From NCBI GenBank assembly GCA_963724395.1, contig CAVRUK010000005.1:211737-275736 (forward strand): a stretch of 64,000 bases of DNA, in the 5' to 3' direction. This DNA is from an uncultured delta proteobacterium (GTDB taxonomy: Bacteria > Desulfobacterota > Binatia > Binatales > Binataceae). A program made the position numbers and the translations under genes. A model generated the notes under the pieces. The model did not search any database. It saw only the letters and a program-made list of their open reading frames with translations, and was not told the origin of the DNA. Below, in pieces: positions 32,984 to 50,095 of this stretch. Within the stretch, counting starts at the first letter, position 1; every line of letters starts with the position of its first letter.

Positions 32984-33923
32984 GCTGCGCGCCGCGGTGA
33001 TCGGCGCGGGCCGGCTGGGCACTCTCCACGCGCGCAAGTACGCCGCGATTGCCGGAATCAGGCTCGCGCACATCGTCGATATCGATCGCGAGCGGGCCGG
33101 AGCGCTGGCGTCGGAAGTTGGCGCGACGCCGACTACCGATTACAAGATGCTCGCGGGCAAGGTTGACCTAGTGACGGTCGCGTCGCCGGGCGTGACGCAT
33201 CATGAGATCGCATCCGCGATGCTGAAAGCGGGCATCGACGTCCTGCTGGAAAAGCCGATGGCCGAGACGCTGGCGCAGGCGCGCGACCTGGCCGCGCTGG
33301 CGTCGGGATGTGGACGCATTCTTCAGATCGGCCACCTCGAGCGTTTCAATCCGGCGGTCGTGCATCTGCATTCGATCGTGAAAAATCCGCGCTTCGTGGA
33401 ATGCCATCGGCTGGCGCCGTTCACCGAGCGCGGCACCGACGTGGACGTGCTGCTCGATCTGATGGTGCACGATCTCGACGTGATCCTGTCGCTGGCGCCC
33501 TCGGAAGTCGCGTCGCTCGAGGCCGTTGGCGTCGCAATTCTTACCGATCGAATCGACCTCGCGAACGCGCGCATCCGCTTCCAGAGCGGCCTCATCGCAA
33601 ACCTGGTCACCAGCCGCGTGTCGGCGCGGCGCGAGCGCAAGATTCGCTTCTTCCAGCCCGACGCGTACATCTCGGTCGATTACGAAGCGCGCAGCATCCA
33701 GGTGTATCGCAAAACTCCGCCGGCGCGGGGCGCGCAATTTCCGACAATTTCGGCCGAGCAAATCGATTTCGGCGAAGGCGATCCGCTCGCCGACGAAGTC
33801 AATGCGTTCGTCGCTGCCGTTCGCAGCAGGTCCACGCCGGCGGTCAGCGCCGACGACGGACTCCGCGTGATGGAGCTGACCGAGAGAATCAAGGAAGTGA
33901 TGCTGACGGATTCGGTGCCTTGA
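32964..33923 (+). CDS. Gfo/Idh/MocA-family NAD(P)-dependent oxidoreductase
   Basis: Rossmann N-terminus (LRAAVIGAGRLGTLHARKY), VLLEKPMA and GHLERFNP. This gene is commonly co-located with lpxI/lpxB. Confidence 0.82.
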   Translation: MPKPVAELRAAVIGAGRLGTLHARKYAAIAGIRLAHIVDIDRERAGALASEVGATPTTDYKMLAGKVDLVTVASPGVTHHEIASAMLKAGIDVLLEKPMAETLAQARDLAALASGCGRILQIGHLERFNPAVVHLHSIVKNPRFVECHRLAPFTERGTDVDVLLDLMVHDLDVILSLAPSEVASLEAVGVAILTDRIDLANARIRFQSGLIANLVTSRVSARRERKIRFFQPDAYISVDYEARSIQVYRKTPPARGAQFPTISAEQIDFGEGDPLADEVNAFVAAVRSRSTPAVSADDGLRVMELTERIKEVMLTDSVP

Positions 33924-33957: not shown

Positions 33958-34404
33958 ATGCGTCTGACCAGGCTAAGAATTCTCGGCGCTGTCATACTCG
34001 CGGCCGGCGCAGCGTTTCTCATCTTCACCGCGACCACAGATTGCACGCCGGTAACCGGCAGCGACGACGTCGCCATCAACGTGTCCGCGCTGCGTCCCGG
34101 CAGCGCGCGGCTTTTCTGTTACACCGACAACGCAGGCGAACGTCTGCGGTTCGTCCTCGCACGCGGCAACGACGGCAGGGTGAGCTCGGTGTTCGACGCG
34201 TGCCGCCAATGCTTCGCGTTCCATCGCGGCTACCGGATAGCTGGCGGCGAACTGATTTGCCGGGTGTGCGGGAATCACTACCCGATCGATCGGATGACGG
34301 AAGGTAAAGCGTCGTGCGTGCCCGTCAGCCTGCGGCATGAAGACGATTCCGGAATCGTGCACATCAAGACCGCGGATCTCAAGGCCGGGGGCGCGCTCTT
34401 CTGA
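33958..34404 (+). CDS. Membrane-anchored CxxC/CxxC zinc-ribbon protein, DUF2318-like
   Basis: N-terminal TM (LRILGAVILAAGAAFLIF) followed by FDACRQCFAFHRGYRIAGGELICRVCGNHYPIDRM. This resembles the DUF2318 proteins found with metal-uptake and thioredoxin genes. Confidence 0.5.
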   Translation: MRLTRLRILGAVILAAGAAFLIFTATTDCTPVTGSDDVAINVSALRPGSARLFCYTDNAGERLRFVLARGNDGRVSSVFDACRQCFAFHRGYRIAGGELICRVCGNHYPIDRMTEGKASCVPVSLRHEDDSGIVHIKTADLKAGGALF

Positions 34405-34429
34405 CTATCCGAGTAGCTATAGCAAGTTC

Positions 34430-35041
34430 ATGATTTTCAACACCATAAGGAACTATAGCCGCGTTCTGGGAATAGTCAGTCTCGCCGCGCTTCTTACTCT
34501 GTCGGCCTGCGGCGATCGTGAAGCCATGGGCGACTATCCGGCGGCTAACGGGAACAATTGCCTGCCGGAAGTGAGTCTGATCGATCAGCACGGTGCCACC
34601 ATCTCACTCGCGTCGCTGAAAGGTAAGCCGGTCCTGATCGATTTTATCTACACCTCGTGCGCATCGACTTGCCCGATGCTGACGGCAAAGATGGCGGCGA
34701 TCGCGCATCAGCTTGGTCCCGCTCTGGGAGCCGACGTTACGATAGTGTCGATCACGCTCGATCCCGAGCACGACAGCCCCGCGGAACTCGCAAAGTACGC
34801 GAAGAGCCACGACGCCGGCGGCAACGGCTGGATTTTTCTGACCGGGACGCCCGCGCAAATCGACCAGGTGCTCGCATTGTTCAAGTTGCGCCGGACGCGC
34901 GAGAGCGATGGATCGATCACGCATTCGATAGAAGCATTCCTGCTCGGTCCCGACGGCCATCAGATTCGGCAGTACAACGCACTCGACGTGAGCCCGGACG
35001 CAGTCGCCGCCGACGTTGATCGCGCCCGCAGCAAAGGCTAA
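34430..35041 (+). CDS. SCO1/SenC-family copper chaperone / thiol-disulfide oxidoreductase (paralog 1, lipoprotein)
   Basis: Lipobox LTLSAC, the CxxxC motif in FIYTSCASTCPM, DPEHDSP, and the conserved His in GSITHSIEAFLLGPDG. Confidence 0.85.
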   Translation: MIFNTIRNYSRVLGIVSLAALLTLSACGDREAMGDYPAANGNNCLPEVSLIDQHGATISLASLKGKPVLIDFIYTSCASTCPMLTAKMAAIAHQLGPALGADVTIVSITLDPEHDSPAELAKYAKSHDAGGNGWIFLTGTPAQIDQVLALFKLRRTRESDGSITHSIEAFLLGPDGHQIRQYNALDVSPDAVAADVDRARSKG

Positions 35042-35052
35042 GAGCACAGACG

Positions 35053-35373
35053 ATGGCAACCTCGCTGACGATCGACCGTACTTCGATGCGGCAAATTGCC
35101 GCGGCGATGGCGTTCGTCATGATGATGGCGAGTCTGCCGTCGATCGGCGTGATCGTCATTTCGGATCGTTCCGGGCCGAGTATCTCGATGGACATCTGCC
35201 ATCCGCTGCAATCGCTCGACAGCGCGCCCAGCGCCGTGCCAATCGCACGCCCTGCGCAGCCCGGCATCGGCGCGAGGATTCTTTCGCACGAGAGACTCGC
35301 TCAATTCGTTCCCATTCTGAAGAGTAAATTAGCCGACGCTCCCGACCCGCCACCGCCCAAGCTGTTCTGCTAG
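35053..35373 (+). CDS. Hypothetical membrane/secreted protein ending in a C-terminal Cys
   Basis: 106 aa, starting 12 nt after the SCO stop. It has a hydrophobic segment (IAAAMAFVMMMASLPSIGVIVI), MDICHP, and a Pro-rich end (ADAPDPPPPKLFC). No family was recognised. Confidence 0.4.
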   Translation: MATSLTIDRTSMRQIAAAMAFVMMMASLPSIGVIVISDRSGPSISMDICHPLQSLDSAPSAVPIARPAQPGIGARILSHERLAQFVPILKSKLADAPDPPPPKLFC

Positions 35374-35473
35374 CAGGGCACTTTCAAATTTTCATCAAGA
35401 GATGATTGCGCGCGAGCCTCGACGGTTCGCGAGCACATGGGTGCGGCCTTAGTTGGCCGGGGATGGGTGTTCT

Positions 35474-36469
35474 ATGCGGAGCAATCATATGTCGTGGCGC
35501 CTGGCTTTCTCTAAGTCGGCCAGACGCGTGTTGGTGGCGACAATTTTCGCGATCGGTCTAACGCCCGGTCTGGTTTGGGCGTGTGCATGCGGATGCGGAG
35601 TTTTCGAGGTGGATACCGAAGCTCTAATTCCCCAGGGAACGGGAGGCCAAGTGTGGTTTCAATATGAATACATGGATCAGTACATAAACTTTAAAGCAAC
35701 TCAGCCAGCCTCTGAATTCCAGAATAACGACAAGTACATCCGAACCAATTTCATGGAAGTCGGCGGACAGTACATGTTCAATCGGAGTTGGGGAGTGATG
35801 CTCGAGGTGCCCTATTGGTCGCGCTACTACAAGGGTGCCTATGTCGGCAACAACGCCGACATTCATTCGTTCCAGGACGACTCGATCGGCGATATCCGAA
35901 TCCAGGGGATGTATACGGGTCTCTCGGAGGACATGTCGACCGGACTGATGGCGGGAGTCAAGGTCCCGAGCGGCCAGTGGACCTATCCACCCTACGATCG
36001 GGACACGCAGATCGGCACTGGAAGCACCGATCTTCTCCTGGGCGCTTACCACATCGGATCATTACCGACGAAGTTGGGGACCTTGCCGTTGACCTTCAAG
36101 GAGCGCCCCTTCAATTACTTCGTGCAGGTCAACTACGATCTGCCGCTGTGGGAACAGGACCAGTACACGCCTGGTAGGGAAGTCGACGGCGCAGTAGGAG
36201 CCTACTACGATTTCGGCAAAGTTGGTTTTCTCAAGGAACTCGCACCGATGCTGACCTTCCTCGCCTCTGACCGTACGCGGGATACTGGAAATAACGCAAA
36301 CCCCGGCGCCAGCGGCTACACGCGTTTGCTCCTGGCTCCGGGAGGCGAAATCAAAATCGGGGTCATCAGGGCCTACGCAGACATTGAGGTCCCGGTTTTT
36401 CAAAACGTGAGGGGCTATCAGCTGACTGCGGCCTACGCGACCAAGCTGATCCTGAGCTACAGCTTCTGA
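35474..36469 (+). CDS. Outer-membrane beta-barrel protein (PF13557 / MetA-pathway transporter-like) with an N-terminal CACGCG motif
   Basis: Signal peptide ending GLVWA, then CACGCGVFEV. It shows an alternating beta-strand pattern, VKVPSG...IGTGSTDLLLGAY, and the terminal LILSYSF (C-terminal Phe, an OMP signature). The region is AT-richer than its surroundings. Confidence 0.6.
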   Translation: MRSNHMSWRLAFSKSARRVLVATIFAIGLTPGLVWACACGCGVFEVDTEALIPQGTGGQVWFQYEYMDQYINFKATQPASEFQNNDKYIRTNFMEVGGQYMFNRSWGVMLEVPYWSRYYKGAYVGNNADIHSFQDDSIGDIRIQGMYTGLSEDMSTGLMAGVKVPSGQWTYPPYDRDTQIGTGSTDLLLGAYHIGSLPTKLGTLPLTFKERPFNYFVQVNYDLPLWEQDQYTPGREVDGAVGAYYDFGKVGFLKELAPMLTFLASDRTRDTGNNANPGASGYTRLLLAPGGEIKIGVIRAYADIEVPVFQNVRGYQLTAAYATKLILSYSF

Positions 36470-36546
36470 AGCGAAGGGAGGGACAACCTTGAGCTATCGG
36501 CTTTTAACCTGCAACTCAGAAACCATAACTACCATAGGATACAGAT

Positions 36547-37137
36547 ATGAGTATTCATCGTAATCTCAGATCTCTCGGAATAGCGTTAGTCGTAGTGTCA
36601 AGCTTGTTCGCGGCTGCTGGATGCCACAGCGACTCAACCGCGGAGGGCGCTAGTGTCCTCACGGACACCAAGCTCGTCGATCAGAATGGCAATACGCTCA
36701 CGCTCGAGTCGCTCAAGGGCAAGCCGATGGTGGTGGATTTCATCTATACGACGTGCCCGGGTCCCTGCCTGATGGAGACGGCAAAGTTTGCGAACGTCGC
36801 GCTACGGCTGGGCAACGATCTCGGTTCGAAGGTGATTCTCGTTTCGATCACTGTCGATCCCGAGCATGACGGCCCTAAACAGTTGCTCGACTACTCGCAT
36901 CAGCAGGGCGCGGATGAGAAGGGCTGGTATTTCCTGACTGGAGGGCCCGCGGACGTCGATAAGGCGCTGGCGGGTTTCAAGCTCAGCCGGCAAATCGAGC
37001 CCGACGGTTCGGTTGGCCACATGATTGCTATGATGCTGATCGGCCCGGATGGGCGGATAGTTAGAGAATACAACGGCGAAGCCGTGAGGGCCCAGGACAT
37101 CGTCCAGGATGTCAAGAAAACGCTCAACGAGGGCTGA
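36547..37137 (+). CDS. SCO1/SenC-family protein (paralog 2, lipoprotein)
   Basis: Lipobox FAAAGC, the CxxxC motif in FIYTTCPGPCLM, DPEHDGP, and GSVGHMIAMMLIGPDG. Confidence 0.88.
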   Translation: MSIHRNLRSLGIALVVVSSLFAAAGCHSDSTAEGASVLTDTKLVDQNGNTLTLESLKGKPMVVDFIYTTCPGPCLMETAKFANVALRLGNDLGSKVILVSITVDPEHDGPKQLLDYSHQQGADEKGWYFLTGGPADVDKALAGFKLSRQIEPDGSVGHMIAMMLIGPDGRIVREYNGEAVRAQDIVQDVKKTLNEG

Positions 37138-37147
37138 GAGACGCAGC

Positions 37148-37730
37148 ATGAAGCGAGGGAACCCGAGCGTGAGGCGAACGACATTGTGGGCTGCTGGCGC
37201 GGGAGTTGCCGCGATCATTTGCATGGCTGCGCTGGCGTTCGCCTCCGCGACTGTCGGTAACGCTGCGCCGGCGCTGGAGGTGCCCGAACTGGACGGTCAG
37301 ACATTCAATCTAAGTGCACAACGTGGGAAAGTCGTGATCGTCAACTTCTGGGCGACCTGGTGTCCGCCTTGCCGCGAGGAAATGCCGGCGCTGGACGCTT
37401 TCTACCGGCGCTATCATGGTCAAGGTCTTCGAGCTGATCGGCGTGAGCGCCGACCGCCCGCACGACCGCTCCGATGTGGTCAAAGTCATGCAGTCGTTCA
37501 GCTATCCCGCGGCCATGCTCGATGACGCCAACGTCAACGATTTCGGCCCACCCAACAGCTTGCCAATGACTGTTGTCGTGGACAGTAATGGGGTGGTGCG
37601 TGCGGAGTTTACGCCCGATCAGGCCAAGGTCACGGAGAAGAGCCTATCGGACGCCGTGCTGCCACTGCTGCCGCAGAGTTCTGCGGCGCATGCATCAGCG
37701 AATCCAGGTAGCGCTGACGCCAAGCCTTGA
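37148..37730 (+). CDS. tlpA: TlpA/ResA-like periplasmic thiol-disulfide oxidoreductase, with a single-base frame break near 37430
   Basis: Signal anchor, then GKVVIVNFWATWCPPCREEMPALDAFYRRYHGQGL in one frame. It continues ELIGVSADRPHDRSDVVKVMQSFSYPAAMLDD...LPMTVVVDSNGVVRAEF in the next frame (ORF 37416-37730). Confidence 0.82.
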
Positions 37731-37763
37731 CCCCAGGAGCAGTCCTCGTTGCAACCGCGTCAA

Positions 37764-38153
37764 GTGAAGAAGCTCGCGCTAGTCGCAGTTATCCTGATGG
37801 CTGGATGCGCTGCTTCGAACAGCTGGGACGTCGATTCGGATCCGAAGCTCGCGCAGTTGGAAAAACAGAGACTGTCCCTCGACGCGAGCGAGAAGCGCTG
37901 CATCGATGAAGCGCAGGTCCGTAGCCGTGATAAGATGGCAGGCATGGCATCAGGTCCCGACGCTCCCGTGGAATCGCAGCCGCAGGGGGCAGATGACGAG
38001 CGCGATCGGGAAATTTCGCAATGCCGGGCCTGGGCGGATCAGGAAAACGCGAATATCGCCGAACAGGAGCGCAACGAATATGAGCTTCAAGCACAGCAAG
38101 AGCGCAGTCGCGCCTTGTTCATGGCGGTTATTACGAGTCCCCCGTTGCACTGA
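37764..38153 (+). CDS. Hypothetical coiled-coil lipoprotein
   Basis: VKKLALVAVILMAGC lipobox followed by charged helical sequence with two Cys (EKRCIDEA, EISQCRAW). No family was recognised. Confidence 0.5.
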   Translation: MKKLALVAVILMAGCAASNSWDVDSDPKLAQLEKQRLSLDASEKRCIDEAQVRSRDKMAGMASGPDAPVESQPQGADDERDREISQCRAWADQENANIAEQERNEYELQAQQERSRALFMAVITSPPLH

Positions 38154-38174
38154 AACCTATCCAGAAAAATTGCG

Positions 38175-38771
38175 ATGCAGTCTTCAGCAGAGTCATCGGT
38201 AGTCACCCAGGATCCGGCGTACGTGCCTCAAGCGAGGCGTCTCGCATCGCGGATTCTGCGCGATCTCGGAGTCGTTGTCCTGCTCGCAATCGCATCGCTC
38301 ATGGCTGGACTCACGATCAACCATTTTTCACTCGCTCCGCAGCCCATCCTCTATCAAACGCCGGAGCAGCGGTTCGATGCCGAGTTGACGACTCTGGTCG
38401 CCGCGCCGCCGTTCAAGATCGCGCCCGCGGCAACCATCGGACTCGATAAATTCCGCACAGCCGTCGACAGCAAGCGTGTACTCATCCTTGATGCGCGCCC
38501 GTCGGTGTTCTTCGAAAATGGGCACGTCCCCGGCGCAAGCAACCTCGCGCGGGACAACTTCGCGCAGGATTATCGGCGCCTGACCGGCGTGCTCGAAGCC
38601 AACCGTGACAAGCCGATCATCGTGTATTGCTCCGGCGGCGAATGCCACGACAGCAAGCTCGTCGCGAACGCACTGCTGAGTCTCGGCTTCGGCAATGTCA
38701 GCGTCTTCACTGGTGGATGGGAAGCATGGTCGGCAGCTGGATTGCCGGCATCGAAGGGGCGCGAACCATGA
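38175..38771 (+). CDS. Membrane-anchored rhodanese-domain protein
   Basis: TM segment (LGVVVLLAIASLMAGLTI) followed by VLILDARPSVFFENGHVPGASNL...PIIVYCSGGECHDSKLVANALLSLGFGNVSVFTGGWEAW. Confidence 0.78.
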   Translation: MQSSAESSVVTQDPAYVPQARRLASRILRDLGVVVLLAIASLMAGLTINHFSLAPQPILYQTPEQRFDAELTTLVAAPPFKIAPAATIGLDKFRTAVDSKRVLILDARPSVFFENGHVPGASNLARDNFAQDYRRLTGVLEANRDKPIIVYCSGGECHDSKLVANALLSLGFGNVSVFTGGWEAWSAAGLPASKGREP

Positions 38772-39211
38772 TGCCCCGCAACAATTCGCGTCGCTATGTG
38801 GTGCTCGCAGCCAGCGTAGCCATGGCCGCCATATTCACTTACGCAGGCATCGACAAGATCCGCGACCCGCTGTCGTTCGCCGATAGCGTCGCCGGATTCG
38901 CGATCCTGCCAGCCGTGCTGATCAACCTGCTCGCGATAGGTCTGCCGCCATTTGAGATCGCGAGCGGCCTCATGTTGCTCGGGCCGTGGACCAGGCGGGT
39001 CGGAGCGCTCGCGGTCGCTGTACTCTCGATAATATTTTTCACGGCATTGGCGTCGGCGCTGCTTCGAGGTCTCACGCTCGACTGCGGCTGCTTCGGGACC
39101 GGCGCCCCGTCACGACCAAGAATGTGGCTGGAGCTTGGACTGGACGCGGTGTTGTTCTCAGCTGCGGTCTTCGTCTATCTACGCTCGACTACCCAGATGT
39201 CGCCGGAATAA
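38768..39211 (+). CDS. MauE/DoxX-family membrane protein
   Basis: Four TM helices and the family motif LTLDCGCFG. There is an ATGA overlap with the rhodanese gene. Confidence 0.72.
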   Translation: MMPRNNSRRYVVLAASVAMAAIFTYAGIDKIRDPLSFADSVAGFAILPAVLINLLAIGLPPFEIASGLMLLGPWTRRVGALAVAVLSIIFFTALASALLRGLTLDCGCFGTGAPSRPRMWLELGLDAVLFSAAVFVYLRSTTQMSPE

Positions 39212-39266
39212 TTGCCTATCGGAAATGGTCTTATCGATCGGCCCGATACGGCCGGTATGGATGTTT

Positions 39267-40175
39267 ATGCGGAAGAAAATAATTTTCGCGCTGATGGTGC
39301 TGTTCGCGATGCGCGCGAGCGCGGTGCATGCACACGGCGTTGTTGGCGATTACATATTCCTGGAGCCGCTGGTGACCGACGACGCGACCCCGGCCAACGA
39401 AATGGATATCGTGGAGCCGAACTGGAACCGGAACTCCGGCGGCCGGACTTTCTCGATCGGTTCGTCAATCGAAAAGCTGCTTGGCACCGATAGCGATAAC
39501 TTGCCGCGATTCAGCATCGGCGGCGGCTCGACGTGGATCTCTCAATCGCCAAAGCAGGGACCTGATGTCAGCGGGTTCGACGTCTTGGGACTGTTCGCCA
39601 AGTATGCGTTTCTAATCGTTCCGGAACATGAATTTATATTGTCGGCCAAGGCGGTGCTGGATTTACCCACGGGCAATCCGTCCGTTACGTCCCAGCAGCA
39701 TACGAGCCTTGGCCCGGAATTGATCGGAGCGAAGGCGCTTGGCGACCTGCCCAACACAACGCTGCTGAAGTGGCTGCGGCCGGTCGGATTCCAGTTTGAC
39801 TACGGCTACCTTCCCGCGTTGGGAGGCCATACCAGTCATCACATGTTTGCCGACGGTATGATCGAGTACTCGCTCCCCTACCTGAGCAACAACGTGCAGG
39901 ACATCGGACTGAAGTGGCCGCTGCGCAATATGTTTCTGTTCAACGAATTCAACTATGACCAGTTGATCTCCGGGCCGCCGCATCAGACCTTCCCCACAAT
40001 CCTGGCGACGCCCGGAATCGCATACATCAGCTATCGTTTCGAAGTCAGCGTCGGTACCCAGTTCGCTCTCAACCAGGCGAGCGTGCCCGGCAATCATGCT
40101 GCAATTCTCGGGCTATTGGACATTTTCTACGACTCGATAATTCCGCAGGGCAATTGGAAACTGTTCGGAGAATGA
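39267..40175 (+). CDS. Outer-membrane beta-barrel protein (PF13557 / MetA-pathway transporter-like), second copy
   Basis: Signal peptide MRKKIIFALMVLFAMRASAVHA, with VLDLPTGNPS...LGPELIGAKALG and alternating strand patterns. The region is AT-richer. It overlaps copC by 4 nt. Confidence 0.55.
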   Translation: MRKKIIFALMVLFAMRASAVHAHGVVGDYIFLEPLVTDDATPANEMDIVEPNWNRNSGGRTFSIGSSIEKLLGTDSDNLPRFSIGGGSTWISQSPKQGPDVSGFDVLGLFAKYAFLIVPEHEFILSAKAVLDLPTGNPSVTSQQHTSLGPELIGAKALGDLPNTTLLKWLRPVGFQFDYGYLPALGGHTSHHMFADGMIEYSLPYLSNNVQDIGLKWPLRNMFLFNEFNYDQLISGPPHQTFPTILATPGIAYISYRFEVSVGTQFALNQASVPGNHAAILGLLDIFYDSIIPQGNWKLFGE

Positions 40176-40561
40176 CAACCATGATCGTTCGAAAAGTCTC
40201 GCTGTTGGCCCTCGGGCTACTGGCTATTGAAGTGAGTACGCCGGCGATTACGGCAGCGCATTCGTTCCCGGAACAGGAAACTCCATCGGCGGGACAGAAA
40301 GTCGCTTCGCCTCCTCCCGAAGTTGTGATCAAGTTTGACGCACCGATAGAGAAGCTGTTCGCCAAGCTGGAAGTGACAGGCGCCGACGGTACGAATCAGG
40401 CAGTCGGCGCGCCCCAGGTCAGCGACGACGGGATTCAGCTGTCGGTCAAGCTCGGCACGCTCAAACCCGGCGATTACACGGTCAAGTGGGCGGTCGTGTG
40501 TATCGATACGCATCACACGGAAGGTTCGTATACCTTCTCGGTCGCGAACGGCGGATCGTGA
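40172..40561 (+). CDS. copC: Periplasmic copper-binding protein CopC
   Basis: The signal peptide ends ...PAITAA, so the mature protein starts HSFPEQETPSAGQKVASPPPEVVIKFDAPIE (N-terminal His typical of CopC). It also contains GDYTVKWAVVCIDTHHTEGSYTFSV. Confidence 0.85.
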   Translation: MTTMIVRKVSLLALGLLAIEVSTPAITAAHSFPEQETPSAGQKVASPPPEVVIKFDAPIEKLFAKLEVTGADGTNQAVGAPQVSDDGIQLSVKLGTLKPGDYTVKWAVVCIDTHHTEGSYTFSVANGGS

Positions 40562-41424
40562 TTCCGCAGCCAATATTCGCGTGGCCGTTGGTAGGGTCGC
40601 AAGTGCTGATATTCGGAACGACAGCTTTTGCGCTGATGGCGGCGCCGCGCGACGTCGCCGCGGCCGATCGTTCGAGTCAAAGCCTGGCGAAGCTATGGAG
40701 GATGCTCGCGCTGATCGTTCTGGTGGTGTCGCCGCTGAGACTTTTGTCGGTCGCGGCCGGAATGGCGGACTCGACCTTCAGAGAAGTGCTTCCGATGATG
40801 CCGCAGATAATGCGCGAGACCTTTGCTGGCCGGGTATGGACGTGGCGGCTCGCGACCGCGCTGTTGTTGGCCGGGGTCGCGTGGATTCCCGCGCCCGGAC
40901 GCCTCGCGACGACGCTGATGCTCGTCATCTCGGCGGCTCTGCTCGCATTGCAAAGCGTCACGAGTCATGCGGTGGACAAGGGCGCGTTCGCGATCGCCGT
41001 TCACTTTACGCATCAGGCAGCCGCCGGCTTGTGGATCGGGGCGTTAGTCTCACTGCTGATAGGCGCGACCTACGGACATGCCGGCGCGAACTGGCTGCGG
41101 TCGGCGACCTCGCGAGTATCAAGGATTGCGGGATGGTCCGTCGCGGCGCTGATAGTGACCGGCGTGATCAGAGCATGGGACGCGCTGGGACTGCGACTCG
41201 ATCTGCTGGTGAACTCGATCTACGGGCGGACATTACTGTGGAAAGTCGGCACTGCCGCCACGGTGATTTTAATTGGCGGCTACAACCGCTATCGGCTGGT
41301 AGGGTCGGTCGGAGAGTCGTCAGCGCGCGCGGCTCTTATTCGCAATGTGGCCGTGGAATGCGCTCTGCTGGCTGTCGTGCTTGGATGGTCGGTAGTGCTG
41401 GCCAATACGCCGCCGCCGCATTGA
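40558..41424 (+). CDS. copD: Copper resistance/import membrane protein CopD
   Basis: Eight hydrophobic segments, with SVTSHAV...AVHFTHQAAAGLWIGAL and GGYNRYRL. The GTG start overlaps the copC stop. Confidence 0.8.
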   Translation: MIPQPIFAWPLVGSQVLIFGTTAFALMAAPRDVAAADRSSQSLAKLWRMLALIVLVVSPLRLLSVAAGMADSTFREVLPMMPQIMRETFAGRVWTWRLATALLLAGVAWIPAPGRLATTLMLVISAALLALQSVTSHAVDKGAFAIAVHFTHQAAAGLWIGALVSLLIGATYGHAGANWLRSATSRVSRIAGWSVAALIVTGVIRAWDALGLRLDLLVNSIYGRTLLWKVGTAATVILIGGYNRYRLVGSVGESSARAALIRNVAVECALLAVVLGWSVVLANTPPPH

Positions 41425-41475
41425 GTAACGTGCGTTTACCATGTAACGAATGTACAATTAGCAAGAGATGCACGT

Positions 41476-42081
41476 ATGACTATTCATCGCAACCTCAGAT
41501 CTTTCGCGATTGTGCTAGTCGCAATGTCGAGTTTGTTTGCGGCTGCTGGATGCCATCGCGACTCCGACGGCGCCGCGGCCTCCGCGAGTGTTCTCACTGA
41601 CACCAAGCTGGTCGATCAGAATGGCAACACCGTCGCGCTCACCTCGCTCAAGGGCAAACCGCTGGTGGTCGACTTCATCTATACGTCGTGTCCGGGGCCG
41701 TGTCTGATGGAGACGGCGAAGTTGGCGAACGTCGCGCTGCGACTGGGCAACGACCTCGGTTCGAAAGTGACGATCGTTTCGATCAGCGTCGATCCCGAGC
41801 ATGACGGCCCCAAGCAGTTGCTCGACTACTCGCGTCAGCAGGGAGCGGACGAGAAGGGATGGTATTTTCTGACCGGCGGTCCTGGAGATATCGATCGGGC
41901 GCTGGCGGGCTTCAAGCTCAGCCGGCAAATCGAGCCGGATGGTTCAGTCGGGCACCTCGTGAATATGATGTTGATCGGACCGGACGGGCGCTTGGTGCGC
42001 GAATACAACGGCGAAATTGTCAAAGCGCAGGACATCGTCGATGACGTCAAGAAGACTTTGAACAAGGGCGGTGCGGCATGA
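41476..42081 (+). CDS. SCO1/SenC-family protein (paralog 3, close duplicate of paralog 2)
   Basis: LFAAAGCH lipobox, FIYTSCPGPCLM, DPEHDGPKQLLDYSRQQGADEKGWYFLTGGP and GSVGHLVNMMLIGPDG. It is near-collinear with 36547-37137. Confidence 0.88.
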   Translation: MTIHRNLRSFAIVLVAMSSLFAAAGCHRDSDGAAASASVLTDTKLVDQNGNTVALTSLKGKPLVVDFIYTSCPGPCLMETAKLANVALRLGNDLGSKVTIVSISVDPEHDGPKQLLDYSRQQGADEKGWYFLTGGPGDIDRALAGFKLSRQIEPDGSVGHLVNMMLIGPDGRLVREYNGEIVKAQDIVDDVKKTLNKGGAA

Positions 42082-42548
42082 AACGGGCAATAATTTTCGG
42101 CTCGTCGCTTGCGACAATCCTGGCGCTGGCATATCTGTGGCCACTGATCGGCGGTTCCGCATTCGAAAATGGCAGTGCGCGCGGAGCGATGTGCATCGCG
42201 GGCCATTGCTGCTGCTCGGGACGCGCGGAGGCCGAGACCGTCGCGGCAAACAACGAAAGGACGCAGGGGCGCTTGACGCTCGACCCAAATCAGTTCGTCG
42301 GCCCAGTTAAGGAAGCCTACAAATACGCGGAGAAAAATCCCGCGCTGCTGGCGCAACTGCATTGCTATTGCGGATGCGACAGGGCCGAAGGTCATCAGAA
42401 CCTCCTCGACTGTTATCGCGGTATGCACGCGTCGTCGTGCGAAATCTGCACCGGCGAGGTGCTGATGGCGAAGCGAATGGCAGAGCAAGGCTCGCCGGTC
42501 GATCAGATCCGCGACGCGATCCGCAGGAATTTCGCGCAGGACAATTGA
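42078..42548 (+). CDS. PCYCGC-motif (PF13798-like) Cys-rich protein
   Basis: N-terminal TM, MCIAGHCCCSG, then LAQLHCYCGCDRAEGHQNLLDCYRGMHASSCEICTGEVLMA. There is a 4-nt overlap with the preceding SCO gene. Confidence 0.7.
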   Translation: MKRAIIFGSSLATILALAYLWPLIGGSAFENGSARGAMCIAGHCCCSGRAEAETVAANNERTQGRLTLDPNQFVGPVKEAYKYAEKNPALLAQLHCYCGCDRAEGHQNLLDCYRGMHASSCEICTGEVLMAKRMAEQGSPVDQIRDAIRRNFAQDN

Positions 42549-46076: not shown

Positions 46077-47072
46077 TTATCCATGGCCTTGCTTAGACTC
46101 GCGGCGCCGGCGCCGCCATGCCGCTTGCCCCCTGACAGCGCGCCGGCCCAAAGTGGTCCGCTTCAGACGCGGCACGATCAACGCAAACCACATCGCGCGG
46201 GTTGCGGTCAGCAAACGTTGGTCGCTGACGTGGATGGCAAGTCTGAACTCGTGCCAGGCCTTGTTGACATCGCCAGCCAGCAGCCATCGCTGCCCGCGAA
46301 ACAGATACACGTTTGTGTATGCGATAGATTTCATTGCGCGGACCGCGGGTGGCAGATCCGGGTCGCTGAATAGCCGATCCAGGGGCACTGTCCGCGTATC
46401 GAGAACATCTGCGAACCGAGCCGAGTGCGCCCCGGTGAGATTGTCATCGTGCCATCGAACATGGGCGAGAACCCGGTCCACGAAGCAGAAACGACAGTGG
46501 CGCGCCAAACGCAAGCGCATGTCCCAATCTTCGTTGGCAATCAGCGACTCGTCATAAAGACCGGTGCGGTCGAAGCAGGAGCGTCGCGCCAAGAGCGCGA
46601 TATTACAAATGCAGTCGTCGTAGACCAGAGTGCGCAAAGTGTCGCCCGGAAAGCGCTCCCGCATTCCGAATACTTCCGGCAGTAAATGCCCGTTGCTGTC
46701 GATCGCCTGGCCCTTGGCGGAGGCAACACCGATTTCAGGGCGCGCCTCAAGAACTCCTACCAGCGTTAGAAGCATGTCCGGCATCCAGAGGTCATCCGAA
46801 TCCAACCGCGCGACGAAGTCGCCACTTGCAGCCCGCATCCCCGCGTTCATCGCAGCGCTGATGCCGCGATTAAGCTGCCGAACGCAACGCATCCGCGGAT
46901 CGGTGATCGCACGGAGCAGTGCGGGCGTTGCATCGGTCGATCCGTCATCAACCACGATCAGCTCGAGGTCCGATAATTCCTGATCCAGAACGCTCTTGAT
47001 CGCCTCGCCCAGGTAGCGGGCGCGGTTATAGGTGGGAATGATGACCGTGACCTTGGGCGGGTGGATGGGCAT
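46077..47072 (-). CDS. Family-2 glycosyltransferase
   Basis: VTVIIPTYNRARYLGEAIKSVLDQ, LIVVDDGSTD, ARLDSDDLW and NEDWDMRLRLA. It is 331 aa and lies in the opposite orientation to the flanking lipid A genes. Confidence 0.85.
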   Translation of the reverse strand: MPIHPPKVTVIIPTYNRARYLGEAIKSVLDQELSDLELIVVDDGSTDATPALLRAITDPRMRCVRQLNRGISAAMNAGMRAASGDFVARLDSDDLWMPDMLLTLVGVLEARPEIGVASAKGQAIDSNGHLLPEVFGMRERFPGDTLRTLVYDDCICNIALLARRSCFDRTGLYDESLIANEDWDMRLRLARHCRFCFVDRVLAHVRWHDDNLTGAHSARFADVLDTRTVPLDRLFSDPDLPPAVRAMKSIAYTNVYLFRGQRWLLAGDVNKAWHEFRLAIHVSDQRLLTATRAMWFALIVPRLKRTTLGRRAVRGQAAWRRRRRESKQGHG

Positions 47073-47079
47073 ATATTTT

Positions 47080-47480
47080 TTGGGAAAAGTCCAGGCGCGC
47101 GATCGCGGTGCGAGTGCGAGCTATTCGGCGGTGGCCATAGGGCACTTTCTAAAAGATCACTTCGCCGCGACGCGAGCGCCACAACATGCCCCGCCAATAG
47201 CTTTCAACGATTTTGGCACGCTCATACTCGGCAATAACTCCGTGAACCTGAGTCAGCAGACACACTTGCGGATCATTATCCAAGCGCGAACGCATCTATG
47301 AAAGGCGCGCGCACGGCCTGCCGGCACATTAGGGCGGTGACTCTCAAAACTCTAGACTTTTTCGCCGCTTTCGGAGTTTTCAGTAGGCACAGGCCCTCTC
47401 AGGCCGGTCGTTTACCGGAAAAGCCTTCAACGCGACAACGGCATGCAATTTCAGGTAGTGTCCTGACCTGAGGCTTACTC
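47080..47480 (-). pseudogene. Degraded serine recombinase (resolvase-domain) relic
   Basis: Minus-strand fragments in shifting frames: EGFSGKRPA followed by a stop (47428-47402); then APFIDAFAL; then a 48-codon ORF at 47295-47149, MRSRLDNDPQVCLLTQVHGVIAEYERAKIVESYWRGMLWRSRRGEVIF; then, after the stop, KVPYGHRRI. These match the D.G.SG...RP, AE(F/Y)ER..I.ER and PYGYR motifs of large serine recombinases. Confidence 0.6.
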
Positions 47481-48959: not shown

Positions 48960-48962
48960 CCG

Positions 48963-50084: not shown

Positions 50085-50095
50085 GAGGTAAAAAA

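What the first reader, a model, noticed from the sequence alone, without database searches (positions are those of the whole stretch)
33958..42548. An 8.6-kb copper / thiol-redox island splits the lipid A operon between the lpxI-linked oxidoreductase and lpxB
fabZ-lpxA-lpxI-(Gfo/Idh/MocA)-lpxB is normally contiguous. Here 14 same-strand, tightly packed ORFs are inserted:
- a DUF2318-like CxxC/CxxC membrane protein
- three SCO1/SenC proteins (CASTCP, CPGPC x2)
- a TlpA-type thioredoxin (WCPPC)
- CopC (mature N-terminal His) and CopD
- a rhodanese plus MauE/DoxX pair (CGCFG)
- a PCYCGC-motif protein
- two porin-like beta-barrels
- a coiled-coil lipoprotein and a 106-aa unknown
There is no regulator, P-type ATPase, multicopper oxidase, CusCBA system or cuproenzyme client. 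Parts are clearly AT-richer than the flanks (I count 23/60 G+C at 35641-35700 and 28/60 at 39601-39660, versus 43/60 at 33001-33060), which argues for acquisition. Read as a unit, it looks like a self-contained envelope Cu(I) acquisition and relay pathway. Copper would enter through the OM barrels and pass to periplasmic SCO/CopC chaperones. These would be kept reduced by TlpA, rhodanese and MauE, with import through CopD. I do not know of this exact ensemble, or this insertion site, having been described.
Basis: partly seen in the sequence, partly recalled or inferred. Interest (0 to 1): 0.7.

Follow-up and report, generated by a model that had tools for sequence, protein, structure and literature searches.

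The report
Modular copper-uptake cluster inside lipid A operon
A soil bacterium of the uncultured family Binataceae carries, wedged inside its lipid A operon, a 14-gene envelope copper-handling cluster built from two reusable modules, each pairing a previously unannotated outer-membrane barrel with copper chaperones and probably switched by a small copper-sensing leader peptide.

Summary
Between the LpxI-linked oxidoreductase (stop 33923) and lpxB there are 14 same-strand, tightly packed genes. Eleven have family matches:
- FtrD-like
- three SCO
- a TlpA-like thioredoxin
- rhodanese
- MauE
- CopC and CopD
- a CYCXC/PCYCGC protein

The two "porins" match no Pfam family. Both model as 12-stranded barrels of the FapF/COG4313 fold.

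The interpretation needs three corrections.

1. It is not a one-off acquired island. Across 80 related genomes the junction is empty only in outgroup Binatia. Within Binataceae it holds 1 to 16 genes in nested, modular versions. The modules also occur free-standing elsewhere in the same genomes.

2. "No regulator" is probably wrong. The 106-aa unknown has the architecture of CruR/CutF copper-sensing leader peptides:
- an export signal
- an invariant Cys
- a fixed 49-residue spacer
- a PPPPK motif three codons before the stop

It sits directly upstream of a barrel gene in 66 of 72 cases. No sequence homology to DUF2946 was detected.

3. The cluster looks like two routes, not one Cu(I) relay:
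- CxCxC barrel, SCO, TlpA and rhodanese/MauE
- His1 barrel, CopC (Cu(II)-type) and CopD

The copper link of the CxCxC barrel holds in four other phyla. The function is inferred, not shown. The TlpA frameshift is probably an assembly error.

The parts
33958..34404 (+). FtrD-like (PF10080) membrane-anchored Cys-rich protein ('F'). It is the first gene of every module version.
   Evidence: Pfam score 65.5 bits against a cutoff of 26.3. C82, C85, C101, C104 and C120 are invariant in 60 homologues. It heads both the junction clusters and the free-standing modules.
34430..35041 (+). SCO1/SenC lipoprotein 'SCOa' (CASTCP motif). It is the gene type found alone at this junction in many Binataceae.
   Evidence: PF02630, E 2.7e-28. 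It has a lipobox LSAC. It is the sole insert in about 13 loci.
35053..35373 (+). 'u': a candidate copper-sensing leader (arrest) peptide. It has an N-terminal export signal or TM segment, an invariant Cys49 (motif DIC[H/Q]PLQ), and an invariant PDPPPPK motif followed by 3 residues and the stop.
   Evidence: It has no Pfam or NCBIfam hit. In 44 homologues the Cys-to-Pro spacing is 48-50 (exactly 49 in 38), and 41 have exactly 3 residues after the motif. A profile search found 616 homologues, almost all 104 aa long. It is followed by a barrel gene in 66 of 72 cases. The geometry matches the DUF2946 ORFs upstream of B1 in Alphaproteobacteria, and published CruR.
35374..35473 (+). Structured 100-nt leader between u and barrel 1.
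   Evidence: The fold z-score is -2.4. Two hairpins are conserved in 12 close relatives. Free-standing copies carry a conserved GC hairpin plus a T-run, and a hairpin next to the Shine-Dalgarno site. Covariation is weak, so a regulatory role is inferred only.
35474..36469 (+). Barrel 1 (B1): a 12-stranded outer-membrane beta-barrel. It has an invariant CACGCG (CxCxC) motif at the predicted mature N-terminus.
   Evidence: C44, C46 and C48 are invariant in alignment A1. The model has pLDDT 73.5. Best fold matches are FapF (E 1.7e-8) and COG4313 4rl8 (TM 0.57/0.69). There are 2125 homologues, none annotated. Its neighbours are copper genes in five phyla.
36547..37137 (+). SCO1/SenC lipoprotein 'SCOb' (CPGPC motif).
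   Evidence: PF02630, E 1.5e-24. It is a direct-repeat paralogue of SCOc.
37109..37730 (+). TlpA-like membrane-anchored thioredoxin (WCPPC motif). It is split by a +1 frameshift at about 37428 in this assembly.
   Evidence: AhpC-TSA, Redoxin and Thioredoxin hits on the N-terminal half. The C-terminal half lies in another frame. There is a single extra T relative to L029. The gene is intact and in frame in relatives.
37749..38153 (+). Lipoprotein 'cc' with two further invariant Cys residues. No family match.
   Evidence: Lipobox C20, C51 and C92 are invariant in 31 homologues. It has no significant family hit. It always follows TlpA.
38175..38771 (+). Membrane-anchored rhodanese-domain protein with a CSGGEC (C-X4-C) active-site loop.
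   Evidence: PF00581, E 3.5e-20. C152 and C157 are invariant in 42 homologues. Its best NCBIfam matches, all below their cut-offs, are the redox rhodanese (seleno)protein families, including the rhodanese/DsbD-like TsoB.
38768..39211 (+). MauE/DoxX-family integral membrane protein with an invariant CGC motif. Its start codon overlaps the rhodanese stop (ATGA).
   Evidence: PF07291, 91.9 bits. C106 and C108 are invariant. The R-M pair is always adjacent.
39267..40175 (+). Barrel 2 (B2): a 12-stranded outer-membrane beta-barrel. Its predicted mature N-terminus is the invariant HGVVGDYxFLEP.
   Evidence: H24 to G28 are invariant in alignment A2. The model has pLDDT 65.9. Fold matches are FapF, COG4313, and PcoB at rank 26. 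It is followed by CopC-CopD in 78 of 79 loci. The family was seen only in Binataceae-type genomes.
40172..40561 (+). CopC with a mature N-terminal His and a D-x-H site. There is no Met-rich Cu(I) site.
   Evidence: PF04234, E 2.9e-20. H36 is 89% conserved, and D118 and H120 at least 80%. The mature part contains no Met.
40486..41424 (+). CopD inner-membrane protein (longest ORF given; the likely start is near 40558).
   Evidence: PF05425 scores 53.8 bits against a cutoff of 32.1. NF033808 scores 125 bits, below its equivalog cutoff of 195.
41476..42081 (+). SCO1/SenC lipoprotein 'SCOc' (CPGPC motif).
   Evidence: PF02630, E 1e-23. It forms part of the minimal 'F Sc Y' version in close relatives.
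42078..42548 (+). CYCXC/PCYCGC-family membrane-anchored Cys/His-rich protein 'Y'.
   Evidence: NF041379 scores 111 bits against a cutoff of 90, and PF13798 also matches. Ten Cys and three His are at least 86% conserved in 49 homologues.

Best explanation
The region is a lineage-specific, operon-like envelope copper acquisition and delivery supercluster. It is assembled from two conserved modules that have accreted at the gfo-lpxB junction of Binataceae.

**Module 1, the thiolate route.**
- The small exported peptide 'u' precedes barrel B1.
- B1's periplasmic N-terminus carries an invariant CxCxC motif.
- Copper entering through B1 is passed to SCO lipoproteins (CxxxC plus His).
- The cysteines of the SCO proteins are kept reduced by the membrane-anchored TlpA-like thioredoxin.
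- The rhodanese (C-X4-C) and MauE (CGC) pair acts as a transmembrane electron conduit, analogous to DsbD/ScsB.

**Module 2, the N/O-ligand route.**
- Barrel B2 has a mature N-terminus beginning with an invariant His.
- B2 feeds CopC (His1/Asp/His Cu(II)-type site).
- CopC feeds CopD for import across the inner membrane.

**Shared components and control.**
- The FtrD-like Cys4 protein and the Cys/His-rich CYCXC protein are shared membrane-anchored accessory metal or redox proteins.
- Expression of the barrel genes is set by 'u'. It works like CruR/CutF. While being exported, the nascent peptide senses periplasmic copper through Cys49. This modulates ribosome pausing at the PPPPK motif three codons before the stop. 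That in turn controls the structured leader RNA upstream of the barrel gene.

**What is shown:** gene content, co-conservation, modularity, the invariant motifs, the barrel folds, and the copper neighbourhoods in other phyla.

**What is inferred:** copper as the transported species, the direction of transport (uptake), the hand-off partners, the electron route, and the leader-peptide mechanism.
For: **Family assignments.**

**Co-conservation.**
- 'u' is followed by a barrel in 66 of 72 cases.
- B1 is followed by TlpA in 50 and by SCO in 16 of 82 cases.
- B2 is followed by CopC in 27 of 28 cases, and by CopC-CopD in 78 of 79 loci.
- Rhodanese and MauE are always adjacent, with overlapping stop and start codons.

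**Free-standing modules.** 'F u B2 C D' and 'F u B1 (S Y) Tlp cc R M' recur away from the lpx junction. One contig carries up to three B1 modules.

**Independent copper link of B1.**

| Lineage | Gene order around B1 |
|---|---|
| Acetobacteraceae | DUF2946-B1-TlpA-PCuAC |
| Alphaproteobacteria | DUF2946-B1-TlpA, then DUF2946-CopC::PCuAC |
| Verrucomicrobia | small ORF-B1-(cydAB)-SCO-CusF::SCO |
| Lysobacterales | B1 next to a CusB-like gene |

**Invariant ligand motifs.**
- At the mature N-termini of both barrels.
- In rhodanese, MauE, CYCXC, FtrD-like and cc.

**Barrel folds.**

**Evidence that 'u' is a leader peptide.**
- It has a fixed 49-residue ruler and a motif 3 codons before the stop. 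This geometry is identical to that of the bona fide DUF2946 ORFs upstream of B1.
- Published CruR has CXXC, 45 residues, then RAPP 3 residues from the end. It heads Cu-acquisition operons containing OM transporters, Sco, PCuAC, CopC and AhpC_TSA genes (PMC9426467).
- CutF has the same logic, with a proline-rich C-terminus and a downstream stem-loop (PMC9973294).
- The u-to-barrel leaders contain conserved hairpins.

**Arguments for uptake over detoxification.**
- The cluster has no efflux pump, multicopper oxidase or P-type ATPase.
- Relatives' versions include a CuA/COX2-domain protein and a YHS protein.

**Ecology.** Binatales live mainly in acidic, organic-rich soils and encode cuproenzymes such as CuMMO and amicyanin-dependent methylamine dehydrogenase (PMC8262859).
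Against: - Nothing here was measured. No metal binding, transport or expression data exist for any of these proteins.
- The two barrels and 'u' match no curated family. Their barrel models are of only moderate confidence, and the N-terminal motif regions have pLDDT below 50.
- 'u' shows no detectable sequence homology to DUF2946 (hhalign probability 1.7%; local hmmsearch not significant).
- 'u' has a single conserved Cys instead of CXXC or CXXXC.
- In the window, B2 is not directly preceded by 'u'.
- RNA covariation in the leader is weak.
- CutF-type leaders can control detoxification genes as well as uptake genes.
- CopC and CopD were first described in a resistance operon.
- The rhodanese/MauE conduit idea rests on analogy only. 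No paper in the library links MauE, rhodanese and copper.
- The thioredoxin is frameshifted in this assembly.
Confidence: 0.55

Rival explanations
1. It is a copper-stress (or general thiophilic-metal stress) defence and envelope thiol-repair system, not an uptake system. Thioredoxin, SCO, rhodanese/MauE and the Cys-rich proteins would buffer periplasmic Cu(I) and repair copper-damaged cysteines, as the Salmonella ScsABCD system does. CopC and CopD would act as in the Pseudomonas syringae cop resistance operon. The leader peptide would switch the genes on when copper is high, as CutF does.
For: - The cluster is dominated by thiol-redox proteins.
- CutF-type leaders control detoxification genes in the presence of copper (PMC9973294).
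- A copper-induced Scs thiol-oxidoreductase system is described in the literature listing.
- One Lysobacterales B1 sits next to a CusB-like gene and a histidine kinase.
Against: - No efflux pump, multicopper oxidase, CopB/PcoB or P-type ATPase appears in any of the roughly 150 cluster versions examined by similarity, or in the window.
- Dedicated outer-membrane channels with metal-ligand N-termini, together with the importer CopD, fit entry better than defence.
- The closest architectural analogue, CruR, heads acquisition operons with the same accessory genes.
Confidence: 0.2
2. It is mainly a maturation line for one or a few periplasmic or membrane cuproproteins, such as CuA-type cupredoxins, haem-copper oxidase or CuMMO. 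This is the TlpA-ScoI-PcuC logic of Bradyrhizobium. On this reading the barrels play a secondary or unrelated role, for example general diffusion.
For: - Three SCO proteins plus a TlpA-like thioredoxin resemble the known CuA-assembly set (PMC6669012, listed).
- A CuA/COX2-domain protein is encoded inside the cluster of relative L001.
- The ancestral insert at this junction is a single SCO.
- Binatales encode CuMMO.
Against: - The window's cluster has no client gene, and the 64-kb window encodes none.
- The barrels are the most tightly linked members and carry invariant metal-ligand motifs.
- CopC and CopD point to cytoplasmic import, which CuA assembly does not need.
- This rival overlaps with the best explanation and does not exclude it.
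Confidence: 0.15
3. The cluster handles something other than copper. Candidates are iron (FtrD-like), sulfane sulfur or selenium (rhodanese and the CYCXC '(seleno)protein' family), or another soft metal such as mercury or silver.
For: - PF10080 is named after the iron-uptake component FtrD.
- A PCYCGC lipoprotein lies next to an Fe3+ binding protein in Parageobacillus (PMC13068155).
- The NCBIfam hits for the rhodanese and the CYCXC protein are to families known with selenocysteine forms.
- Some CutF-like leaders are linked to nickel or cobalt genes.
Against: - No FTR1 permease or P19 partner, no mer genes, and no selenium-utilisation genes are present.
- Five genes (three SCO, CopC, CopD) are copper families.
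- The B1 neighbours in other phyla are PCuAC, CusF, SCO and CopC.
Confidence: 0.07
4. One reading: the 8.6 kb is a recently, horizontally acquired genomic island.
For: - The junction is empty in 15 of 15 outgroup Binatia and in 12 Binataceae.
- G+C and GC3 are slightly lower than in the flanking lpx genes.
- Content differs between close relatives.
Against: - All 25 close relatives (gfo 83-97% identical) have the site occupied. The same first gene is present and the versions are nested.
- There is no tRNA, integrase or flanking repeat.
- GC3 lies within the range of other native ORFs.
- B2 and 'u' are families seen essentially only in Binataceae.
- Paralogous modules exist elsewhere in the same genomes. 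One free-standing B1 is 93% identical to the window's copy. This points to within-lineage duplication and recombination.
Confidence: 0.1

Closest known systems
CruR (DUF2946)-headed copper acquisition operons, e.g. Bordetella pertussis bp2923-bfrG-bp2921 (PMC9426467)
   Same: - A small exported peptide is encoded first and is followed by a long leader.
- An outer-membrane transporter gene comes next.
- Operon partners in the family include Sco, PCuAC, CopC and AhpC_TSA/thioredoxin genes.
- A Cys sensor lies about 45-49 residues upstream of a proline-containing motif, which sits 3 residues before the stop.
   Different: - The outer-membrane protein here is a 12-stranded barrel, not a TonB-dependent transporter.
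- The leader has one conserved Cys (C-[H/Q]-P) and PPPPK instead of CXXC and RAPP.
- No detectable sequence homology to PF11162.
- Copper dependence is untested.
CutF of the Rhodobacter capsulatus cutFOG operon (PMC9973294)
   Same: - A Sec-exported nascent peptide carries a Cys motif and a proline-rich C-terminus.
- It acts in cis through a downstream stem-loop.
   Different: - CutF switches on a multicopper oxidase for detoxification. No oxidase is present here.
- The motif details differ.
TlpA-ScoI-PcuC CuA assembly pathway (Bradyrhizobium; PMC6669012)
   Same: A membrane-anchored thioredoxin occurs together with SCO copper chaperones carrying CxxxC plus His.
   Different: - There is no PCuAC in the window and no adjacent oxidase.
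- There are three SCO paralogues.
- Barrels, CopC/CopD, rhodanese/MauE and Cys-rich proteins are added.
CopCD / YcnJ-type copper import
   Same: A CopC with a Cu(II)-type His1 site is encoded immediately before CopD.
   Different: Here the pair is invariably preceded by a dedicated outer-membrane barrel with its own N-terminal His. It is embedded in a larger cluster.
COG4313 (Pput2725, PDB 4rl8) and FapF 12-stranded outer-membrane channels
   Same: They are the best structural matches of both barrel models (TM up to 0.69). All have an N-terminal extension ahead of a 12-stranded barrel.
   Different: - No sequence-level membership (no PF13557 hit).
- The known members are linked to hydrophobic molecules or amyloid secretion, not metals.
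- The CxCxC and His1 motifs are specific to the families found here.
Salmonella ScsABCD and DsbD-type envelope reductase systems; mycobacterial DoxX-SseA (rhodanese) complex (the latter from my own knowledge of Nambi et al. 2015)
   Same: - Copper-linked periplasmic thioredoxin-fold proteins are fed by a membrane redox protein.
- An integral DoxX/MauE-type membrane protein is paired with a rhodanese.
   Different: - There is no DsbD/ScsB homologue.
- The rhodanese is periplasmic-anchored with a C-X4-C loop.
- No superoxide dismutase partner is present.
- The role is inferred only.

Membership tests
SCO1/SenC (PF02630) | Thioredoxin-fold SCO domain above the Pfam cutoff | tested here: met
   Scores are 99, 86.9 and 84.2 bits against a cutoff of 22.8.
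SCO1/SenC (PF02630) | CxxxC motif plus a distal His copper ligand | tested here: met
   CASTC, CPGPC and CPGPC motifs are present. His is present in the ITHS, VGHM and VGHL contexts (by inspection).
CopC (PF04234) | CopC domain; mature N-terminal His and a D-x-H Cu(II) site | tested here: met
   Score 73.5 bits. The predicted cleavage AITAA|HSF gives His1. D118-x-H120 is at least 80% conserved.
CopC (PF04234) | Met-rich Cu(I) site (present only in the two-site class) | tested here: not met
   There is no Met in the mature sequence. It is therefore a Cu(II)-only type CopC.
CopD (PF05425 / NF033808) | CopD domain above the curated cutoff | tested here: inconclusive
   Pfam scores 53.8 bits, above its cutoff of 32.1. 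The NCBIfam equivalog scores 125 bits, below its cutoff of 195.
TlpA-like periplasmic thioredoxin | WCxxC active site, N-terminal membrane anchor, intact reading frame | tested here: inconclusive
   The WCPPC motif and the anchor are present. The frame is broken by one extra T at about 37428. This is probably an assembly error, because rpoB is also fragmented.
MauE (PF07291) as part of a methylamine dehydrogenase (mau) cluster | MauE domain; neighbouring mauA, mauB and mauD genes | tested here: not met
   The domain is met (91.9 bits). No mau genes are in the cluster. The partner is a rhodanese.
CYCXC / PCYCGC family (NF041379, PF13798) | Model score above the curated cutoff; CYCGC motif | tested here: met
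   NF041379 scores 111.3 bits against a cutoff of 90. PF13798 scores 35.9 against 25. C96, C98 and C100 are invariant.
FtrABCD iron uptake system | FtrD-like domain together with P19 (FtrA) and FTR1-type permease (FtrC) genes | tested here: not met
   PF10080 is met. No P19 or FTR1 gene is in the cluster or the window.
DUF2946 / CruR / CutF copper-sensing leader peptides | Match to PF11162 or demonstrable homology | tested here: not met
   No Pfam hit at E<=10. hhalign probability is 1.7%. hmmsearch is not significant.
DUF2946 / CruR / CutF copper-sensing leader peptides | N-terminal export signal | tested here: met
   A hydrophobic N-terminal segment is conserved in 45 homologues. This was judged by inspection. 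No signal-peptide predictor was available.
DUF2946 / CruR / CutF copper-sensing leader peptides | CXXC or CXXXC copper-binding motif | tested here: not met
   Only one Cys is invariant (C49, followed by H or Q, then P).
DUF2946 / CruR / CutF copper-sensing leader peptides | C-terminal proline-containing arrest-like motif about 3 residues before the stop, at a fixed distance of about 45 residues from the Cys motif | tested here: met
   A PPP(P)[K/R] motif with exactly 3 residues after it occurs in 41 of 44 members. The spacer is 48-50 residues in all 44.
DUF2946 / CruR / CutF copper-sensing leader peptides | First position, directly upstream of a copper-related gene, with a long or structured intergenic region | tested here: met
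   'u' is followed by a barrel in 66 of 72 cases. The leaders are about 95-125 nt long and contain conserved hairpins.
DUF2946 / CruR / CutF copper-sensing leader peptides | Copper-dependent control of downstream expression in cis | not testable with these tools
   This needs reporter fusions, toeprinting or transcript profiling.
COG4313 / PF13557 outer-membrane channels | Sequence match to PF13557 | tested here: not met
   Neither barrel has a hit at E<=10.
COG4313 / PF13557 outer-membrane channels | 12-stranded barrel with an N-terminal extension | tested here: inconclusive
   Foldseek TM scores to 4rl8 are 0.57/0.69 for B1 and 0.52/0.57 for B2. Model confidence is moderate.
Horizontally acquired genomic island | Mobility signatures at the borders (tRNA, integrase, direct repeats) | tested here: not met
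   None were found. The flanks are lpx genes.
Horizontally acquired genomic island | Site empty in close relatives; foreign composition | tested here: not met
   The site is occupied in 25 of 25 close relatives and is empty only at 73% gfo identity or lower. GC3 is only slightly lower than in the flanks.

The most novel reading that the evidence does not exclude
Three parts of this cluster may be new.

1. B1 and B2 are two unrecognised families of small, TonB-independent outer-membrane copper channels. Each carries a periplasmic N-terminal hand-off motif matched to its chaperone: CxCxC to SCO thiolates, and an amino-terminal His to CopC.
2. Each barrel is governed by a new class of copper-sensing ribosome-arrest leader peptide. 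It has a single Cys, a fixed 49-residue ruler, and a PPPPK motif three codons before the stop. It converges on the geometry of CruR/CutF without detectable homology.
3. The rhodanese (C-X4-C) and MauE (CGC) pair is a new transmembrane reductase supplying the TlpA/SCO branch.
Probability: 0.3. Interest if true: 0.8.

Novelty: new variant of a known kind. Interest (0 to 1): 0.62.

Why it matters
How copper crosses the bacterial outer membrane is known for only a few TonB-dependent receptors. Otherwise it is attributed vaguely to porins.

This cluster offers directly testable material:
- Two abundant, unannotated barrel families. B1 has 2125 homologues in the protein search and occurs in at least five phyla. 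B2 has 405 in the same kind of search. Both have invariant metal-ligand N-termini and very tight linkage to copper chaperones, which makes them concrete candidates for dedicated copper channels.
- A leader peptide that would extend the recently discovered CruR/CutF mode of metal sensing by nascent exported peptides. It would reach a new sequence class and new phyla. Its ruler is very precise (49 residues, then 3 codons to the stop).
- A rhodanese/MauE pair that suggests a new way of powering periplasmic thiol reduction.

For Binataceae, abundant in acidic peat and forest soils, the cluster may explain how cuproenzymes are supplied where copper is bound to organic matter.

The nested series of 1 to 16 genes at one conserved junction is also a clean natural example of stepwise operon accretion by module shuffling.

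Tried and rejected
- **PF13557 membership of the barrels.** Rejected: no hit at E<=10. Only fold-level similarity remains.
- **Relatedness of B1 and B2 to each other.** Not detectable by BLASTP.
- **Homology of 'u' to DUF2946.** Tested by hhalign and local hmmsearch, with no signal. Only 3 of 10 positional equivalents outside Binataceae match PF11162. I therefore claim architecture and analogy, not membership.
- **Known RNA elements in the cluster.** No Rfam match at E<=0.1.
- **Promoter and terminator consensus scan.** Counts were no higher than in shuffled sequence, so it was not used.
- **Leader RNA covariation.** Hairpins are conserved, but only 3-4 pairs show compensatory changes. This is too weak to claim a structure as shown.
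- **Mobile-element hallmarks.** No tRNA within 25 kb, and no inverted or flanking direct repeats.
- **Cuproenzyme client in the window.** None was found among 20 further ORFs.
- **TlpA as a true pseudogene.** Considered and judged unlikely, because essential rpoB is also fragmented in this assembly.
- **Literature.** No paper in the library links MauE, rhodanese and copper. Nothing was found on TsoB beyond a review table.
- **Tools left unused.** I did not use the representative-protein search or the metagenome scan. Their output lacks context or would again be dominated by close Binataceae relatives.

Full report
**What is there**

The window is core chromosome of an uncultured Binataceae bacterium (Binatia). 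Its closest public locus is contig CAWHWI010000001. That locus has 97% protein identity for the oxidoreductase and 95% nucleotide identity across the thioredoxin gene. The surrounding genes are housekeeping and envelope biogenesis genes:
- rpoB and a tRNA cluster
- lptF/G
- a lipid A acyltransferase
- a secretin
- bamA-skp-fabZ-lpxA-lpxI-gfo
- lpxB-msbA, kdtA and lpxK
- relA/spoT and nuoD

Fourteen + strand genes lie between the stop of the Gfo/Idh/MocA oxidoreductase (33923) and lpxB. Their gaps range from -4 to 100 nt. Curated models confirm eleven of them:
- an FtrD-like PF10080 protein
- three SCO1/SenC lipoproteins (CASTCP, CPGPC, CPGPC)
- a TlpA-like thioredoxin (WCPPC)
- a membrane-anchored rhodanese
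- a MauE protein (CGCFG)
- CopC and CopD
- a CYCXC/PCYCGC protein, which passes the NCBIfam cutoff (111 against 90 bits)

The two barrel candidates, the 106-aa ORF and the lipoprotein have no family, even at E<=10.

**The barrels**

Both belong to large families annotated only as "hypothetical" (2125 and 405 homologues). AlphaFold models built on 23-24 homologues have pLDDT 73.5 and 65.9. Both show 12-stranded barrels. Their best solved matches are FapF and the COG4313 channel 4rl8, with TM scores up to 0.69. PcoB appears lower in the list for B2.

The informative part is the roughly 20 residues between the signal peptide and the first strand:
- In B1 this is an invariant A-C-A-C-G-C-G-V-F-E-V, with three invariant Cys.
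- In B2 it is an invariant H-G-V-V-G-D-Y-x-F-L-E-P. The His is the first residue after a V-H-A cleavage site.

The N-termini of outer-membrane barrels face the periplasm or plug the lumen. These motifs are therefore well placed to receive or hand off a metal. That role is inference.

**Is it an island?**

Using the oxidoreductase as an anchor, I fetched 80 genomes and mapped all 14 proteins onto them.

| Group (gfo identity to window) | State of the gfo-lpxB junction |
|---|---|
| Outgroup Binatia (52-55%), 15 loci | All empty; gfo and lpxB are 4-89 bp apart |
| Binataceae (65-79%) | 12 empty; about 13 with a single SCO; 4 with SCO+CopC; 8 with F-SCO-(u)-B2-CopC-(CopD) variants |
| Close relatives (83-97%), 25 loci | All occupied and all begin with the FtrD-like gene |

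Among the close relatives the content ranges as follows:
- three genes (F-SCO-Y)
- eight genes (F-SCO-u-B2-C-D-SCO-Y)
- 14 to 16 genes

The operon is therefore truly interrupted relative to the outgroup. But the site has been occupied and remodelled throughout the family.

Several further observations argue against recent foreign acquisition:
- There is no tRNA, integrase or border repeat.
- GC3 is only slightly lower than in the flanking genes: 0.65-0.77 against 0.74-0.82.
- Searches anchored on B1 and B2 show that the same gene sets exist as free-standing modules elsewhere in the same genomes. These are 'F u B2 CopC CopD (SCO/Y)' and 'F u B1 (SCO Y) TlpA cc (SCO) Rhod MauE'.
- One contig has three B1 modules.
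- One free-standing B1 is 93% identical to the window's copy.

The window's arrangement reads as the B1 module inserted between 'u' and B2 of the eight-gene version. The two 78-84% identical SCO genes, 4.9 kb apart, are obvious substrates for further rearrangement. I conclude that this is lineage-internal modular accretion, not a recent foreign island.

**Is it a functional unit, and is it about copper?**

Linkage is very tight:
- B2 is followed by CopC-CopD in 78 of 79 loci.
- B1 is followed by the thioredoxin in 50 cases and by SCO in 16, of 82.
- Rhodanese and MauE are always adjacent, with overlapping stop and start codons.

Outside Binataceae, the CxCxC barrel occurs in these contexts:

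| Lineage | Context of B1 |
|---|---|
| Acetobacteraceae | DUF2946-B1-TlpA-PCuAC |
| An alphaproteobacterium | DUF2946-B1-TlpA, followed by DUF2946-CopC::PCuAC |
| Verrucomicrobia | small ORF-B1-(cydAB)-SCO-CusF::SCO |
| Planctomycetes | next to a thioredoxin/SCO-like gene |
| Lysobacterales | next to a CusB-like gene |

This is independent support for a copper role of B1.

Relatives' versions of the junction cluster also contain a CuA/COX2-domain protein and a YHS-domain protein.

The redox and metal motifs are invariant across homologues:
- rhodanese C-X4-C
- MauE C-G-C
- ten Cys and three His in the CYCXC protein
- five Cys in the FtrD-like protein
- two Cys plus the lipobox Cys in the lipoprotein

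CopC has the mature His1 and a conserved D-x-H, but no Met. It is therefore the Cu(II)-only type, not a Cu(I) carrier.

**The 106-aa unknown**

This ORF ('u') is the most interesting piece. Forty-five Binataceae homologues share only the following features:
- an N-terminal hydrophobic export segment
- one invariant Cys, in D-I-C-[H/Q]-P-L-Q
- an A-R-P-A patch
- an invariant P-[D/E]-x-P-P-P-K near the C-terminus

The geometry is rigid:
- The spacer between the Cys and the first Pro is 48-50 residues in all 44 sequences that carry both motifs, and exactly 49 in 38 of them.
- Exactly three residues follow the motif in 41 of those 44.

A profile search finds 616 homologues, nearly all exactly 104 aa long and none annotated. 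The gene sits immediately upstream of B1 or B2 in 66 of 72 cases.

In Alphaproteobacteria the ORF at the same position is a bona fide DUF2946 protein. It has CXXC, then 47-49 residues, then R[A/G]PP, then 3 residues, then the stop.

DUF2946 is the family of two characterised leader peptides:
- CruR of Bordetella pertussis is a copper-sensing upstream ORF. Its CXXC and its RAPP motif (3 residues from the end, 45 residues apart) control an outer-membrane transporter gene post-transcriptionally. Its homologues head operons containing Sco, PCuAC, CopC and AhpC_TSA genes (PMC9426467).
- CutF of Rhodobacter capsulatus is an exported nascent peptide. Its Cys motif and proline-rich C-terminus act through a downstream stem-loop (PMC9973294).

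The Binataceae 'u' shows no detectable sequence homology to DUF2946 and has one Cys instead of two. I therefore do not file it as a member. It does meet the architectural criteria.

The leaders between u and the barrel are 95-125 nt long and carry conserved hairpins. In free-standing copies these are a GC hairpin plus a T-run, and a hairpin next to the Shine-Dalgarno site. The window type has two hairpins. Covariation is weak.

I therefore propose, as inference, that 'u' is the missing regulator. It would be a copper-sensing arrest peptide of a new sequence class.

**Mechanism proposed**

There are two parallel entry and delivery routes under leader-peptide control.
- *Thiolate route:* B1 (CxCxC) passes copper to SCO lipoproteins. 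The TlpA-like thioredoxin keeps them reduced. Electrons come through the rhodanese/MauE pair, by analogy with DsbD/ScsB-type systems and with the mycobacterial DoxX-rhodanese complex. The latter comparison is from my own knowledge.
- *N/O-ligand route:* B2 (His1) passes copper to CopC (His1/Asp/His) and then to CopD, for import.

The FtrD-like, CYCXC and cc proteins are conserved accessory Cys-rich membrane or lipoproteins of unknown step.

Uptake is favoured over detoxification for three reasons. No efflux or oxidase genes occur in any version. The closest architectural analogue controls acquisition. CopD is an importer by established knowledge of the family. However, the direction of transport is not shown.

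Binatales live mostly in acidic organic soils and encode CuMMO and amicyanin-dependent enzymes (PMC8262859). This gives a plausible demand for copper.

**Data-quality note**

The thioredoxin is split by one extra T at about 37428 relative to the closest relative. Relatives have it intact. The essential rpoB gene in the same window is also split into at least three frames. The frameshift is therefore most likely an assembly error and not a pseudogene.

**Verdict**

- The functional reading (an envelope copper and thiol-redox unit) is largely supported by co-conservation and by copper contexts in other phyla.
- The "acquired island", "no regulator" and "Cu(I) relay through CopC" parts are not supported.
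- Relative to what is known, this is a new variant of leader-peptide-controlled copper acquisition operons. It contains three unannotated families (two barrels and one leader) and an unprecedented rhodanese/MauE partner.
- Interest is moderately high because the parts are directly testable. They bear on how copper crosses the outer membrane.

Noticed in passing
window 96-4047 (- strand): The essential rpoB gene is fragmented into at least three reading frames. One ORF (3070-4047) encodes residues ~5-240 and another (849-3293) encodes domains 2 to 6 in part. The rest lies in another frame. This indicates indel errors in the assembly, typical of long-read MAGs.
   Followed up: partly
window ~37428: There is a single extra T (GGTCTTCGAG against GGTC-TCGAG in L029). 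It splits the TlpA-like thioredoxin into two frames. The gene is intact in all relatives examined.
   Followed up: yes
window 36527-36922 and 41456-41857: SCOb and SCOc, including about 20 nt upstream, are 78-84% identical direct repeats 4.9 kb apart. They bracket the TlpA-to-CopD segment and are likely recombination substrates behind the many cluster variants.
   Followed up: partly
L001 16397-16999 (relative's cluster): A 200-aa protein with a COX2/CuA cupredoxin domain (PF00116, E 2e-13) is encoded between an SCO and the rhodanese. It is a possible client cuproprotein and is absent from the window. L018 has an unassigned gap of similar size (685 nt) at the same position, but I did not scan it.
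   Followed up: partly
L020 13479-13883; L013 12796-13605: Other versions of the same junction carry a YHS-domain protein (L020) or a sulfotransferase (L013). Several further ORFs in mid-distance relatives (L026, L028, L030, L033, L048, L052) have no Pfam family.
   Followed up: partly
L093, L094, L137, L134 and others, ~45-90 nt after the u stop codon: Free-standing u-B1 modules have a conserved GC-rich hairpin (GACGCCGC...GCGGCGTC) followed by a T-run. It looks like an intrinsic terminator or attenuator between the leader ORF and the barrel gene. The window's own leader lacks the T-run.
   Followed up: partly
L158 6650-9086; L156 (Verrucomicrobia): In L158, cytochrome bd oxidase genes cydAB are inserted between the CxCxC barrel and the SCO / CusF-SCO genes. 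L156 has ORFs of the same sizes at the same position, but these were not scanned. In L159 the SCO genes follow the barrel directly.
   Followed up: no
window 10555-26738 and 46080-60723: The copper cluster sits inside a very large envelope and LPS biogenesis neighbourhood. It includes lptF/G, a lipid A acyltransferase, a secretin, a LolC/E-like gene, bamA, the lpx genes, msbA, kdtA, lpxK, GT2/GT87/GT9 glycosyltransferases and a heptosyltransferase-like gene.
   Followed up: partly
L037, L210 (labelled Acidiferrales); L031, L214 (labelled Thermodesulfobacteriota); L218 (labelled Actinomycetes): Contigs carrying Binataceae-type genes are deposited under other taxon names. L037 and L031 carry gfo at 91% and 73% identity, and L037 also the start of the copper cluster. 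L210, L214 and L218 carry the B2-CopC-CopD module. These are probably mis-binned or mislabelled MAG contigs.
   Followed up: no
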